Positions 20,301-31,201 of a DNA stretch of 64,000 nucleotides are shown here, piece by piece (the stretch's first letter is position 1; the number at the start of each line of letters is the position of its first letter). The stretch is from the human T2T-CHM13v2.0 reference genome, Homo sapiens. The DNA lies in NCBI RefSeq assembly GCF_009914755.1, contig NC_060926.1. One strand, written 5' to 3'. The notes below the pieces were generated by a model. That model had not been told where the DNA came from, did not search any database, and saw nothing but the letters and a program-made list of their open reading frames with translations. The translations under genes and the position numbers were made by a program.

Positions 20301-20617
<317 letters not shown>

Positions 20618-22202
20618 ATAAGATTAATTTTTAACCAATTTCTTGGTTTTGATTCTAACTGTTGATATTTGAAATATTCCCAAATGTGGCAATTAAACAA
20701 ACTGGGCAATTTTCAGTGGTAGAGTCACAAAAATTCCTTGTTCCATGCATGGGTTCACTAATCATAATATTGTTCTTCAAGGTAGTAAAATTAATACGGT
20801 TGCTTTCATAATGAAGAAAACAACATAATTACGTCACTCGTTGGGCTTTAGAACTTTATTTGGAAGGAAGATAATATAGAAATTAGATTTGTGTTCATGT
20901 ATGGATTGACGCAATCAAGTTCATTTGAAGCTAGAGTAACTTACAAGCTTAAGATGTGACCAGTGAGCTGGGTACACTGTATAGAAACTTATCATTGGAT
21001 TTGAGTTGGAAACAATAGCATTGCAGTGCAATCTTACTACATCAGTATATTATATTCTGAATACCATTTTCTGAGTAGTAGTAGTCTTGTCTATAGAAAC
21101 TGAATGGATAGCCTGTTTAATAGTTGAAGTTTGGGCCAGGAGGAGCTGAAATTGCCCTTCATGCCATGGGGAAATGGAGCACTCAGTTTGAAGGCCCTTT
21201 GTAATGTGGAACTGTTAAATTCACTTTAAACTATTATTTTTAAAAAATAGGCTGTCTGCAGCCATCATCCATGGTGAGGATTTGTATTCTCCTTCTTGGA
21301 TCTGTCACGGGCTGGCTCGCTCATGTTGAGCAAGGCGGCCAAGTTTGGAGCTTGATGTGGCTTCCATTGAGGTGTTACGTGGGCAGCAGGCCATGCGGGA
21401 CATGAAAAACGTTTGCCATGCAGTTTCTGTTGGTCCCAGCCGAGACGAAAATGAACAGTTCTAGCAAAATTGCTAAGTCAGGGATGTTTGTCTCTGTAAA
21501 GTTGCTTTTTTAGCTCACTTAATTTTTTTTGTCTGTGAAAGCCTTTCTCTTTTTTAATTCTCCCCTTCAGTGGTTTCTAGCCATCGTCTCTAATTAAAAT
21601 AAAGAATCTTAGCTTTATTTTTTGAAACTTATTTGTACCCACTTTCTAAATCTGCCTTTATTTTTTGCATTTTCCAGCCTCTGATGATGGAGAAATAATG
21701 GTTGCAAATAAAAACCAGTTCAGGAGGAAACTGTATCTGAGACGGGAAATGGATCATGTTGCTTGTGAGTTTCAGGGCTCTTCAAAGTCAGCCTTTGAGG
21801 ACAGGAGAGTCCTGAGTCCTACTTGGCATTTCAGGCCCCTGCCCACTTTGGCCTCTCTAGACTTTCCTTGGCCTCTCCCTGCCTGTCTTTACATTCCAGC
21901 CTGCAGGGAAGGGTACCCTTGAGTGTGACTGGTGCTAGTTCTGCTCTGGGCATGTGCTCTTCTCTCTGCTGGGGATGCCTTCCCCACCATCTTCTCTTTG
22001 TCCTTCAAGGCTCCTTCCAGAAGCTAGAACTGATTCCTTTTTAGAGAAGTCTTCCTTCATCCTCTTGGATCATATGGGAGATGTTTCTTCTGTGTTCTTG
22101 CGATACTGTGTGCATATCATGCACTGCCGCATTTGCACACTGCTGTGAACCCAGGATCCACAATGGTGCTTGGCACGTAGTAGAGCCTCAACAGATACTT
22201 GT

Positions 22203-27427: not shown

Positions 27428-28176
27428 TCTTTTCCTTTTCTTTAGAATAACTTTATTTAGTCTCATGGCAATTAAGTTGTCTTCTGGAATTTTATGGTGA
27501 CCTTTTACTAAATATACCACAAATACTGCTTTTCTGAATTTGAGTCTTTGGAGAATGTGGTTTTAAAACTTTTCTGTGACATTCTTTGGGAATCCACTGA
27601 GTTGCTGGTTATAAGGTATCTTTCTGGCTTTCAGATATGCCCTTCTGAATAAATGCACCCCAACTTTGGATGGACATGGGGTGCTGGCTTGTGGATGGGC
27701 AGGCTGTCTTTCTGCTTTATGCATCTGAAGTTCTTGGCCACTGAAGACTTGCAATCTGGTGATGGGCAGGCTTGTGGTAAGATTTTTTTGTGGTCTTCCC
27801 TGCTATCTCAGTTATTAGTGAACAGTCACCTGATTTTCCCATGTTTGATTTTTGTAGCAAGTGTGGTTTCTGTAGTTCATTTCTTTGATTTGCTGTTTTT
27901 CTCTTGCTACTGCAGACTTCTCACTTTCATGAATTTCACAGTACATGTTTGTCCCTGCAATTAAAGATTGAATGTTCCCGGGAGTATTTTCATTTTATCT
28001 GAAGAGTTTGTAGTCCCAGCTCCCTTCCCCACCACCCAACCCCACAACAACAAAAATTGTGTAGACTAGCATTACTCCAAAGGACTTGATGAGGATTTGA
28101 TTGGAGCCCAAGTGGCTGGAGCACCCTAACTAGTTACAAAGCTCAAAGGAGGCCCTTTGTTTTCAAATCTCCTCTC

Positions 28177-28551
28177 CTTTGTTTTTGTTTTTTTCAGACA
28201 GTCTCTCTTTGCCCAGGCTGGAGTGCCGTGGCATGATCCATGGAACACTGCAGCCTCAACCTCCCCAGGCTCAGGTGATACTCCCACGTCAGCCTCCCGA
28301 GTAGCTGGGACTACAGGTGCATGCCACCATGGCTGGCTAATTTATGTATTTTTTTTAATAGAGATGGGGTTTTGCCATGTTGCCCAGGCTGGTCTTGAGC
28401 TCCTGTGCTCAAGTGATCTGCCCGTCTCGGCCTCCCAGAGTGCTGGGATTACAAGTGTGAGCCAGTGCACCCAGTCAGCTATTTAAAAAAATTTTTTTAG
28501 AGACAGAATCTTGCCAAGTTGCCCAGGCTGGTCTCCAATTCCTGGGCTCAG
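28177..28551 (-). mobile_element. AluJ (~28177-28478) followed by a partial Alu monomer (~28490-28551)
   Basis: CTGCAGCCTCAACCTCC..GGCTCAGG, GTTGCCCAGGCTGGTCTTGAGCTCCTG; a second AGAGACAG..GTTGCCCAGGCTGGTCTCC..CCTGGGCTCAG follows. Confidence 0.82.
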
Positions 28552-28784
28552 CCCATCCCCCTGCTTTGGAACGTTTCATGTTCCCAAGCCGAAACTGTGT
28601 CCCTCCCCGCCAGTCCCTGGCACCGTCTGTTCTTTTTCTGTATTATGTGCCTGGCACATAGTACGCACCCAGTACCTGTTGTGATTGTGATTTTTATTAG
28701 TAATAGTTGGTCGTACCTAATTGGCATGTGCTGTTTTAAAGTGACAATAAAACGTACACGACAAACTTTGAGAGCATGGGGTAT

Positions 28785-29973
28785 TGTCATGGTTTGAATG
28801 TGTCCTCCAAAGTTCATGTGTTGGAAACATCCCAGTGCAATACTGTTTACAGGTGAGAACTTTAAGAGGTGATTAAGTCATGCAGACTCAACCCTCCTGA
28901 ATAGATGAATGAGGTTATCGCGGGAGCGCGTGGGTTATCGCGGGAGCGCGTTCCTGATGAAAGGGTGGGTTCGCCCCCTCCCCCTACCCCCCCCACCAGC
29001 AGGTTCCAGATGGAAGGGTGGGTTCGCGCCGTCTTTCGCCTCCTCCTCCTCCTCCTCCTTGCGGGAGCGGGTTCCTGATAGGAGGGTGGGTTCGCGCCCT
29101 CCTCCTTCTGGCGCAAGTGGGTTTCTCATGGGAGGGTGGGTTCGCACCCTCTTCCTTCTCGCGCGAGCGGGTTCCTGATGGGAGGGTGGGTTCTCGCCCT
29201 CCTCCTCCTCCTCTTTCTCCTGGCGTGAGCGGGTTCCTGATGGGAGGGTGGGTTCGCGCCCTCCTCCTCCTCCTCCTCCTTGCGCTAGCAGGTTCCTGAT
29301 GGTAGGGTGGTTTCGTGCCCTCCTCCTCCTCGCGCGAGCGGGTTCCTGATGGGTGGGTGGATTCGCGCCCTCCTCCTCCTGCTCGCGCCAGCGGCTTCCT
29401 GATGGGTGGGTGAGTTCACGCCCTCTTTCTCCTGCTCACGCCAGCGGCTTCCTGATGGAAGGGTGGATTCGTGCCCTCCTTCTCCTCCTGCTCGCGCCAG
29501 CGGGTTCCTGATGGTAGGGTGGGTTCGCGCCCTCCTCCTCGCGTGAGCGGGTTCCTGATTGAAGGGTGGGTTCGCGCCTTCCTCTTCCTCCTGGCGCGAG
29601 CGGGTTCCTGATGGAAGGGTGGGTTTGCGCGCTCCTCGCGCGAGCGGGTTCCTGATGGAAGGGTGGGTTCGCGCCCTCCTCGCGCTAGTGGGTTCCTGAT
29701 GAAAAGGTGGGTTCACGCCTTTTTTCTTCTGCTTGCGCGAGCGGGTTCCTGATGAAAGGGTGGGTTTGGCTCCCTTCTTTTCTCTTCCTCCTCCTTTTCT
29801 CTTCCTCCTCCCATGAGTGTGCTCTTGCATCGTGGAGTGACTTGGCAAGAATGCCCTCAAATGCAGGCCCCTTGAACTTGGGCTTTCGCAGCCTCCAGAC
29901 CTGCAAGAAATAAATCTCTGTTCTTTACTTGTCTCAGGTATTCTGTCATAGCAGCACAAATTGGAATGAAACA
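28785..29973 (+). mobile_element. MST-family (MSTC/D-like) ERVL-MaLR solo LTR expanded by an internal minisatellite
   Basis: 5' end TGTCATGGTTTGAATGTGTCCTCCAAAGTTCATGTGTTGGAAAC; 3' end CAGCCTCCAG..GAAATAAAT..GTCTCAGGTATTCTGTCATAGCAGCACAAA..ACA; perfect 5-bp TSD GGTAT (28780-28784 / 29974-29978). Confidence 0.88.
28940..29810. repeat. CpG-rich minisatellite, 16 units of ~44-68 bp, consensus GCGCGAGCGGGTTCCTGATGG(A/G)AGGGTGGGTTCGCGCC(CTC)n
   Basis: TTCCTGAT-like cores counted at 28951, 29004, 29072, 29122, 29172, 29234, 29293, 29343, 29396, 29449, 29505, 29552, 29605, 29649, 29693 and 29746. Confidence 0.95.
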
Positions 29974-30630
29974 GGTATGTAGGCATCCTTATATCTTGCT
30001 AGCTATATCTTGCTAGTTTTGGGGATGTAAATCAGTACAATTTTACTGAAAGAAACATGGGATATCACTGCTACACAAGCCTAAAAATCCTCGTATTATT
30101 GTATCAGATAATTCCTTTGCTCTAAGGAAATATACAGAGGTATGATATACAAATGTAGGAGTGAAAGACTATTGCATTACTTTTTAAAATTTTTTTATTT
30201 TTTTATTTTTATTTTTATTACTTTTTTAAATAGAAAAATTGAACAAATTAAATGCCTAGTACTGTGGGATTATTTAAGTAAAACATGCAATTACTACTTA
30301 GCTTTTAAATTGTGGTAAAATATTTATCATGGGAAAATGTTTAAAATCTGTTGTGATATAAAAGGCTGTAAGAAAGCAAGCATAAATATAAGTGTATTTT
30401 TGTGATATATGTGTATGGATGATATACCATATATGGGAATATATATGGAACATACTAAAATTTTACCATCTGTAGGGAGTGGAATGATGAATGATGTTTA
30501 AAAAAATTTTTCTTTGTGGTTTTCCAGTATTTAATAAATTTTTTGTGATTGAGCAAGTATTTTGGTCTATTAGAAAAAAACAGTAATTTCACTTGGAAAA
30601 GTGATATTTTGATTGGCTCTGTGAGGTTAC

Positions 30631-30940
30631 TTTATTTTTATTTTTATTTTTTATTTTTTTTTTTTTTTGAGACAAGGTCTCGCTATGTTACCCAGGCTAG
30701 AGTACAGTGATGCAGTCATGACTCACTGCAGCCTTGAATTCCCAGATTCAAGCAATTCTCCTACCTCAGCCTCCCAAGCAGCTGGGACTACAGGGACATG
30801 CCAACATGCCTAGCTACTTTATTTTGTAGAGATGGGGTCTCCCTGTGTTGCATGGGCTCATCTTAAACTCTTGGACTCAAGCAGTCCTCCCACTTCAGCC
30901 TCCTGAATATCTGGGATTATAGACATGTACCACATCCAGC
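30631..30940 (-). mobile_element. AluJ
   Basis: T-rich tail, CTCACTGCAGCCTTGAATTCC, GGACTCAAGCAGTCCTCCCAC; diverged. Confidence 0.85.
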
Positions 30941-31201
30941 TGTTACATGAGGTTAAAAGAGAACGATCCCCAGGGGGAGAACCTGGCAAAATGGGCCTGT
31001 TTATAGGGGTCCCCACCACCCAGTGGCTAGCTGGCTCTTCACACAGCAGCTGCCCTTGTGCCCAGGCGGTGGTGGACATGCCCCCTAAGCCCTCCTTCCT
31101 AGCCCTCTTGGGAGTCCCAACCTGAATGTGAGTGAGCCCCTCTGAGTTTTTTGACATCAGAGGAAACAGGGCAATCTCCCCTCTCTTACATACCCCAAAT
31201 C

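What the first reader, a model, noticed from the sequence alone, without database searches (positions are those of the whole stretch)
28914..29810. CpG-island-like minisatellite born inside an ancient MST LTR, forming an array of E2F-like and KLF/SP motifs
Seen: an LTR with intact TG..CA ends and TSD GGTAT has grown to 1189 bp (MST LTRs are roughly 0.4 kb) by 16-fold amplification of its own internal GCGGG..TTCCTGAT..GGTTCG segment plus a variable (CTC)n spacer. The array is very CpG-rich (GCGCG, TTCGCGCC, palindromic CTCGCGCGAG), whereas the LTR flanks and the rest of the window are CpG-depleted. Most units carry GGGTGGG (CACCC box, KLF/SP), and many carry TTCGCGCC (E2F-like). Inference: either the array is unmethylated in the germline, or it is recent and/or subject to GC-biased homogenisation. 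It is a candidate orphan CpG island, a copy-number-tunable enhancer or alternative promoter, or a variably methylated locus. MaLR LTRs are known to act as oocyte and early-embryo promoters.
Basis: partly seen in the sequence, partly recalled or inferred. Interest (0 to 1): 0.75.

Follow-up and report, generated by a model that had tools for sequence, protein, structure and literature searches.

The report
Sperm-unmethylated repeat island inside old retrotransposon
A 16-copy repeat grown inside an old retrotransposon remnant in an intron of the human MGAT5 gene forms a CpG island that published data show unmethylated in sperm but methylated in eggs and body tissues, which likely explains why its CpGs have survived and makes it an unlikely everyday gene switch.

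Summary
In detail: a solo LTR (28785-29973, TG..CA, 5-bp duplication GGTAT) is 1189 bp against a median 393 bp in 27 relatives, because one internal segment was amplified to 16 units (GC 0.64, 70 CpG, o/e 0.76). The array is old, not recent: no two cores are identical, yet unit pairs keep 78% of their CpGs against deamination where equally diverged Alu pairs keep 27%. A published methylome table (PMC5106035, supplement) lists a 720-bp, 54-CpG interval that fits only window 29112-29831: sperm 1.5%, oocyte 97%, blastocyst 36%, placenta 87%, 14 somatic tissues 95-99% methylated. So it is an intragenic CpG island that behaves as a transient maternal germline DMR, one of 4,352 in that study. Lack of methylation in sperm likely preserves the CpGs; transcription of MGAT5 through it likely methylates it in oocytes and soma. 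The enhancer reading is weak: methylated in soma, no strict E2F site, same length in hg19 and CHM13, absent from a human oocyte LTR-transcript list. The origin of this island by tandem amplification inside an LTR was not found in print.

The parts
28780..28784 (.). left target-site duplication GGTAT
28785..29973 (+). solo MaLR-type LTR (MST-like, name recalled), 1189 bp, same sense as MGAT5
   Evidence: TG..CA ends; 40 of 40 scored candidates each gave matches to the 5' and 3' parts; relatives median 393 bp
28785..28912 (+). 5' part of the LTR, no CpG left
   Evidence: 81% identity to relatives, like relatives among themselves (82%)
28913..28951 (+). 20-bp doublet, a family feature, here with identical copies and 8 CpG
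28938..29810 (+). minisatellite: 16 cores of 40 bp (28938-29772) with 5-29 bp C/T spacers and a C/T tail
   Evidence: the G-rich unit form is found only here (9 of 9 genome-wide matches)
29112..29831 (.). published oocyte-methylated, sperm-unmethylated interval (hg19 chr2:134949155-134949874; 720 bp, 54 CpG)
   Evidence: PMC5106035 supplementary file 11, row 2213; only exact fit among 547 starts tested
29806..29821 (+). partial 17th unit start at the 3' edge, its three CpG places read CA, TG, TG; likely the short repeat that seeded the first duplication
   Evidence: 72% copy in family D4; relatives show a CA/TG run here; role inferred
29909..29914 (+). LTR poly(A) signal AATAAA
   Evidence: present in 22 of 27 relatives
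29935..29943 (+). splice-donor-like CAG|GTATTC near the LTR 3' end, use untested
   Evidence: 13 of 27 relatives have a like word; position fits MaLR donors described in PMC5538554
29974..29978 (.). right target-site duplication GGTAT

Best explanation
This is an old minisatellite, grown from one segment of a solo LTR in an MGAT5 intron, that forms a CpG island unmethylated in sperm and methylated in oocytes and somatic tissues, and it likely keeps its CpGs because it escapes methylation in the male germline, likely with little or no role as a somatic enhancer. Steps: (1, shown) a CpG-bearing segment of the LTR was amplified to 16 units; (2, inferred) the first duplication used short CG-rich repeats on both sides of the segment; (3, shown by divergence) units have since drifted apart with little homogenisation; (4, shown) CpG loss among units has been several times slower than in Alus; (5, published table) sperm 1.5%, oocyte 97%, blastocyst 36%, soma 95-99%; (6, inferred) high CpG density shields it from de novo methylation in male germ cells, which in turn spares the CpGs, a self-sustaining loop; (7, inferred) MGAT5 transcription through the island directs methylation in growing oocytes and, after implantation, on the paternal copy, so it is a transient maternal germline DMR.
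For: Unit pairs keep 0.78 +/- 0.05 of CpGs against TG/CA decay at strict non-CpG difference 0.067-0.106; 561 pairs of 34 Alu copies keep 0.36 at most in any bin, 0.27 at matched divergence; decay per unit divergence 2.3-3.6 (pessimistic bound 8.4) against 12-24 for Alus; related LTR copies share 4% of CpGs. This sequence result came before, and agrees with, the published methylation row, whose 720 bp and 54 CpG fit only 29112-29831 (1 of 547 starts); with that offset probe cg20063095 (hg19 134,977,141, PMC6471696) falls 2 bases from a CpG. PMC2987832 reports that maternally methylated regions lose CpG no faster than unmethylated islands because methylation in oocytes is brief. PMC6102241 states that oocyte methylation follows transcription, including at intragenic islands. 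Edge sites have decayed: 4 of 5 decayed-CpG-type sites in the 3' query read TG in the window, the fifth lies in unit 16 and is intact.
Against: The methylation values are one re-analysis of public short-read bisulfite data with low oocyte coverage (54.8% of CpGs) over a repeat; 36% in blastocysts was not shown to be allele-specific. CpG transitions still run 2.5-3.3 times the non-CpG rate relative to unit 14, so protection is not complete. The array core is only 40 bp x 16, so errors are wide, and tandem repeats may mutate faster than Alus. A second table row in MGAT5, used as a mapping control, fitted only loosely (offset about 300-490 bp away, no exact span). Why male germ cells leave it unmethylated was not tested. 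Function in germ cells or embryos is not excluded.
Confidence: 0.8

Rival explanations
1. A functional transient imprint: the unmethylated paternal copy acts as a promoter or enhancer in male germ cells or preimplantation embryos, starting an alternative MGAT5 transcript that would use the LTR's splice donor.
For: Unmethylated in sperm and 36% in blastocysts; LTR in the sense of MGAT5 with poly(A) signal and donor-like word kept; CACCC-type word in 13 of 16 cores; PMC5106035 reports that some transient maternal DMRs drive imprinted expression in embryos; an annotated transcript exon begins at 27648, 1.1 kb upstream, without an AG before it.
Against: No annotated exon or RefSeq functional element at the array (hub annotation); no ZFP57 hexamer (recalled motif) in the LTR; not in the placenta-specific or PGC tables searched; it is one of 4,352 such regions; units show free decay, 32 distinct variants in 40 columns.
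Confidence: 0.1
2. A somatic orphan-CpG-island enhancer whose strength is tuned by unit number through KLF/SP and E2F sites, like the VNTR in LTR10.
For: Island composition; precedent of LTR10 VNTRs carrying AP1 motifs (doi 10.1126/sciadv.ado1218); PMC12881830 mentions a tumour-hypomethylated MGAT5 enhancer, but its text and supplement legends give no coordinates.
Against: 95-99% methylated in 14 of 14 somatic tissues and 87% in placenta; 0 strict E2F sites; no identical cores, TRF match 76-78%; same length and CpG count in two reference haplotypes over units 4-16.
Confidence: 0.05
3. A neutral GC-rich minisatellite, methylated in both germlines, whose CpGs are kept by recent turnover or GC-biased gene conversion, perhaps at a PRDM9 hotspot.
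For: Before amplification the seed gained strong bases (3:0 and 4:0 weak-to-strong against 10:10 in the flanks, p 0.23 and 0.11); the 20-bp doublet is fully homogenised; 11 of 16 cores are one mismatch from the recalled PRDM9 13-mer and one exact match lies at 29475.
Against: Sperm methylation 1.5%; variants among units run 21 strong-to-weak to 1 weak-to-strong (polarity assumed from unit 14); 17 of 32 variants are private to one unit; a one-mismatch PRDM9 word arises in 11% of shuffled units; flanks show no GC rise.
Confidence: 0.05

Closest known systems
Transient oocyte-derived germline DMRs (tDMRs) at intragenic CpG islands (PMC5106035; mouse concept in PMC3778900, seen only as a search listing)
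   Same: Oocyte-methylated, sperm-unmethylated, partly methylated in blastocysts, fully methylated in soma; this very interval is a row in the study's table.
   Different: The table gives no sequence origin; here the whole island is a minisatellite built from an LTR segment. Allelic methylation in embryos not shown.
Minisatellites born in transposable elements, e.g. mouse Ms6-hm and Hm-2 in MaLR LTRs; short-flanking-repeat model of Haber and Louis (as cited in reviews PMC9659126, PMC6947457)
   Same: Tandem array inside a MaLR LTR with short similar repeats at both ends of the amplified segment.
   Different: Units are 44-68 bp, old and diverged, with no sign of hypermutability; single locus (9 of 9 matches here; among 100 listed of 110 family-form matches only one 24-bp duplication).
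LTR10A/F internal VNTR enhancers (doi 10.1126/sciadv.ado1218)
   Same: Tandem repeat inside a primate LTR that multiplies factor-binding words.
   Different: LTR10 VNTRs are subfamily-wide, polymorphic and active; this array is private to one copy, methylated in soma and unchanged between two references.
Lineage-specific orphan CpG islands (PMC11170920, PMC12582260)
   Same: Island without an annotated start site, inside a transposable element, which such islands rarely are (LTRs 1.3% of island DNA).
   Different: Those papers name substitutions, element insertion and GC-biased conversion as routes; the word 'tandem' occurs 0 times in either main text. This island is methylated in soma.

Membership tests
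MaLR solo LTR | TG..CA ends with 5-bp target-site duplication | tested here: met
MaLR solo LTR | dispersed family of about 0.4 kb sharing both flanks | tested here: met
   1210 and 941 first-look candidates, 40 scored each; 27 copies median 393 bp
MaLR solo LTR | poly(A) signal and splice donor near the 3' end | tested here: met
   AATAAA 29909, donor-like word 29935; function untested
MST subfamily (MSTA/B/B1/B2) | best match to a Dfam/Repbase MST model | not testable with these tools
   no repeat library held; name recalled
CpG island (sequence definition) | >=500 bp, GC>=0.55, o/e>=0.65 | tested here: met
   897 bp, GC 0.64, o/e 0.76; only such island in the window
Active orphan-CGI enhancer | unmethylated and open in somatic cells | tested here: not met
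   0.95-0.99 methylation in 14 of 14 tissues; chromatin not testable
Transient maternal germline DMR | oocyte high, sperm low methylation | tested here: met
   0.97 against 0.015 in the published row, mapped by exact span and CpG count
Transient maternal germline DMR | intermediate in blastocyst, resolved after implantation | tested here: met
   0.36 blastocyst, 0.87 placenta, 0.95-0.99 soma
Transient maternal germline DMR | methylation confined to the maternal allele in embryos | not testable with these tools
   no allelic data seen
Imprinting control region (lifelong) | about 50% allelic methylation in soma; ZFP57 sites | tested here: not met
   soma 0.95-0.99; 0 ZFP57 hexamers, motif recalled
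VNTR (polymorphic minisatellite) | unit number varies between people | tested here: inconclusive
   no difference between hg19 and CHM13 over units 4-16; two haplotypes only
Oocyte LTR-initiated transcription unit | transcript starts in the LTR in human oocytes | tested here: not met
   no matching row in PMC6102241 supplementary tables, which include the human list; one dataset only
E2F target array | TTTSSCGC sites (recalled motif) | tested here: not met
   0 matches

The most novel reading that the evidence does not exclude
Tandem amplification inside a dead LTR created from scratch a self-sustaining CpG island that became a primate-specific transient imprint, whose unmethylated paternal copy fires an alternative MGAT5 promoter in male germ cells or early embryos; more generally, minisatellite birth is an unrecognised route by which new germline DMRs arise.
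Probability: 0.1. Interest if true: 0.7.

Novelty: new member of a known kind. Interest (0 to 1): 0.33.

Why it matters
It is a clean single-locus case of how a CpG island can be born and kept in a CpG-poor genome: an old LTR segment was copied 16 times and now differs between sperm and egg in methylation. Relatives of the same LTR serve as controls, having lost nearly all CpGs. It makes one question testable: whether CpG density reached by tandem amplification is enough to escape male-germline methylation and to seed a maternal germline DMR. As a regulatory element of MGAT5 in normal tissue it is probably unimportant, and the interval is already catalogued among thousands.

Tried and rejected
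Recent amplification: rejected (16 of 16 cores distinct; closest pairs differ at 2 of 40). Ongoing GC-biased conversion: not supported. Subfamily-wide VNTR as in LTR10: the array as query found only itself (1 candidate), the G-rich unit only this locus, TRF on 38 related copies showed no expansion of this segment, and the family form showed one 24-bp duplication among 100 listed of 110 matches; these searches are lower bounds and would miss diverged arrays. E2F, GC box, ETS CCGGAA, NRF1, NF-kB, DUX4, BANP and ZFP57 words (all recalled motifs): 0 matches each. Canonical G-quadruplex with loops up to 7: none; 4 long-loop candidates. Structured RNA: 0 Rfam matches in 27500-31000. Literature on this locus: searches for MGAT5 with VNTR (7 papers), 'variably methylated' (0), coordinate prefixes (1, irrelevant), CpG island/intron/methylation (25), germline-DMR terms (0 of 25 listed, of 200, mention MGAT5), and MSTB with tandem repeat and CpG island (1, not read) gave no description of the repeat. 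The CoRSIV paper's one held supplement had no hit, but its large tables may not be in it. An MGAT5 STR (PMC10097659) and an MGAT5 enhancer (PMC12881830) could not be placed: no coordinates in the text held, one scanned file unread. Rows dropped: 11 of 38 related copies (5 mis-delimited or interrupted, 6 segmental-duplicate twins of L006).

Full report
Observation. The element runs from 28785 to 29973 (1189 bp), starts with TG, ends with CA and has GGTAT on both sides. Sixteen units were found by two repeat finders; each has a 40-bp core and a C/T spacer of 5-29 bp. The array (28914-29810) has GC 0.64, 70 CpG and o/e 0.76, against o/e 0.19 in the rest of the window; the best of 1227 other windows of the same length has 21 CpG, and no other 500-bp window passes the stricter island test. 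GGGTGGG lies in 13 of 16 cores and TTCGCGCC in 7 of 16, but the strict E2F pattern (recalled) has 0 matches and the words arise in 4-7% of shuffles of one unit.

Family. Searching the genome with the 5' and 3' parts gave 1210 and 941 candidates, of which 40 each were scored. Of 38 non-self loci fetched, 27 were used; 5 were mis-delimited or interrupted and 6 were duplicate twins of L006. The 27 are 335-450 bp long (median 393) with 0-5 CpG. The window's 5' flank is as far from them (81%) as they are from each other (82%). Poly(A) signal and a donor-like word sit where PMC5538554 (passages read) places them in MaLR LTRs. The name MST is recalled, not tested. The G-rich unit form occurs only here (9 of 9 matches); the A-rich family form has 110 matches, and among the 100 listed only one adjacent pair, a 24-bp duplication. 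So the expansion is private to this copy, within the limits of these searches.

Origin of the unit and its CpGs. Related copies show mixed TG and CA, the mark of a decayed CpG, at the start of the segment (at 28941: CA 7, TG 9, CG 2 of 22), in its second half (TG 9, CA 4 of 16) and in a run just downstream (TG or CA in 8 of 12 and 9 of 12). Two other CpG places of the unit look new in this copy (relatives TG 16 of 22 with no CA; GC 13 of 16). Both ends of the segment therefore held short CG-rich repeats, which fits the flanking-repeat model of minisatellite birth as summarised in PMC6947457 (passages); this step is inferred. The partial repeat at the 3' edge has CA, TG, TG at its three CpG places, so the edge has decayed while the interior has not. 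End units 1, 15 and 16 stay closest to the A-rich family form at the variable four-base block.

Age and CpG decay. No two cores are identical; non-CpG difference among units is 13-14%, or 0.067-0.106 on a strict measure on which related LTR copies differ by 0.154. The array is thus roughly half to two thirds as old as the LTR family, likely tens of millions of years (inference; tandem repeats may run fast). Distances are largely star-like around unit 14, with some shared variants in neighbouring units. Still 62 of 96 CpG places are intact. Unit pairs keep 0.78 +/- 0.05 of CpGs against TG/CA decay, while 561 pairs among 34 Alu copies keep 0.27 at matched divergence and never more than 0.36 in any bin. 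Decay per unit of divergence is 2.3-3.6 (pessimistic bound 8.4) against 12-24 in Alus. Against this, CpG transitions still run 2.5-3.3 times the non-CpG rate relative to unit 14 (p 0.02 and 0.008). Variants run 21 strong-to-weak to 1 weak-to-strong, which does not suggest ongoing GC-biased conversion; an earlier GC gain in the seed is possible but not significant (p 0.11-0.23).

Methylation. In PMC5106035 (passages and supplementary files searched; files 13 and 15 not searched) sheet 'Mat meth DMRs in embryo' lists hg19 chr2:134949155-134949874, 720 bp, CpG island, 54 CpG, MGAT5 gene body: oocyte 0.97, sperm 0.015, blastocyst 0.36, placenta 0.87, and 0.95-0.99 in 14 of 14 somatic tissues. In the window exactly one of 547 runs of 54 CpG spans 720 bp, 29112-29831, covering units 4-16. 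With that offset an array probe from PMC6471696 (table passage) lands 2 bases from a CpG 28 kb away. A second MGAT5 row 62 kb upstream fitted only loosely, about 300-490 bp off with no exact span. The exact fit also shows that hg19 and CHM13 have the same length and CpG count there. The study counts 5,438 oocyte-derived DMRs, 4,352 of them partly methylated in blastocysts; all three MGAT5-named rows of that file are on this sheet, one being MGAT5B, and the file 14 search was blank. Caveats: short-read bisulfite data over a repeat, low oocyte coverage, no allelic test.

Mechanism. PMC2987832 (passages) shows that regions methylated only in oocytes lose CpG no faster than unmethylated islands, since that methylation is brief, whereas male-germline methylation lasts long. 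This explains the slow decay. PMC6102241 (passages) states that oocyte methylation follows transcription and H3K36me3, including at intragenic islands; the array lies in an intron of MGAT5, so read-through likely methylates it. Its human oocyte LTR-transcript table has no row for this place or for MGAT5, so the LTR is likely a target of read-through, not an oocyte promoter. That CpG density itself protects the island in male germ cells rests on my own knowledge of CXXC-protein recruitment and was not tested.

Comparison and novelty. It works like, and on the testable features is, a transient maternal germline DMR at an intragenic island; it fails the tests for an active orphan-island enhancer and for a lifelong imprinting centre. 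Minisatellites in MaLR LTRs are known from mouse (tables in PMC9659126 and PMC6947457), and VNTR-tuned LTR enhancers from LTR10 (doi 10.1126/sciadv.ado1218, passages). Two papers on island birth (PMC11170920, PMC12582260, passages) do not use the word 'tandem'. The original papers on MaLR/MstII elements and on PRDM9 and minisatellites were not held and are only recalled. Ten searches found no description of this repeat; subscription papers are not covered. PMC7396431 concerned MGAT5B only and the bioRxiv preprint mentioned MGAT5 only as part of an introgressed segment.

Verdict. Real feature, already catalogued as a methylation interval, with an origin not found in print. New member of a known kind; interest 0.33; confidence in the best explanation 0.8; a functional transient imprint remains possible at about 0.1.

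Noticed in passing
L052 1367-1830 (G000:C1 near 199,715,930): An unexpanded copy of the same LTR family keeps 15 CpG in 464 bp (o/e 0.57), far above the 0-5 of other copies; it is the only other genome-wide match to the intact CpG-bearing doublet word. It may be a second germline-unmethylated copy and is a natural control.
   Followed up: partly
L054 424-471 (G000:C7:105140123-105140170): An independent 24-bp tandem duplication inside the same LTR segment in another copy, CpG-poor.
   Followed up: partly
L055 3260-4800 (G000:C2 about 134,569,300-134,570,800, MGAT5 intron, outside the window): A CpG-rich stretch with a perfect (CCGCCCCACA) x 8.2 repeat and 41/121-bp repeats that recall LTR12 (name recalled); it likely corresponds to the second MGAT5 row of PMC5106035 (oocyte 0.97, sperm 0.075, blastocyst 0.46).
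   Followed up: partly
window 27635-27776: The alternative MGAT5 exon has an AG before 27635 but none before 27648, so the model starting at 27648 looks like a transcript 5' end, 1.1 kb upstream of the LTR.
   Followed up: no
window 28951-28965 and the same place in each unit: The amplified segment includes an A-rich, TATA-like word in related copies (inference from real copies such as L010 and L037); in all 16 units here it is G-richer and flanked by a CACCC-type word.
   Followed up: partly
window 20301-20647 and 21260-21507: An Alu with 12 CpG and a nearby short stretch pass the loose 200-bp island scan, next to the RefSeq enhancer at 20826-20995.
   Followed up: no
window 28938-29772: A and T columns of the core outside the variable block are almost invariant (2 changes in 10 columns x 16 units), while G and C columns vary freely; cause unknown, small numbers.
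   Followed up: no
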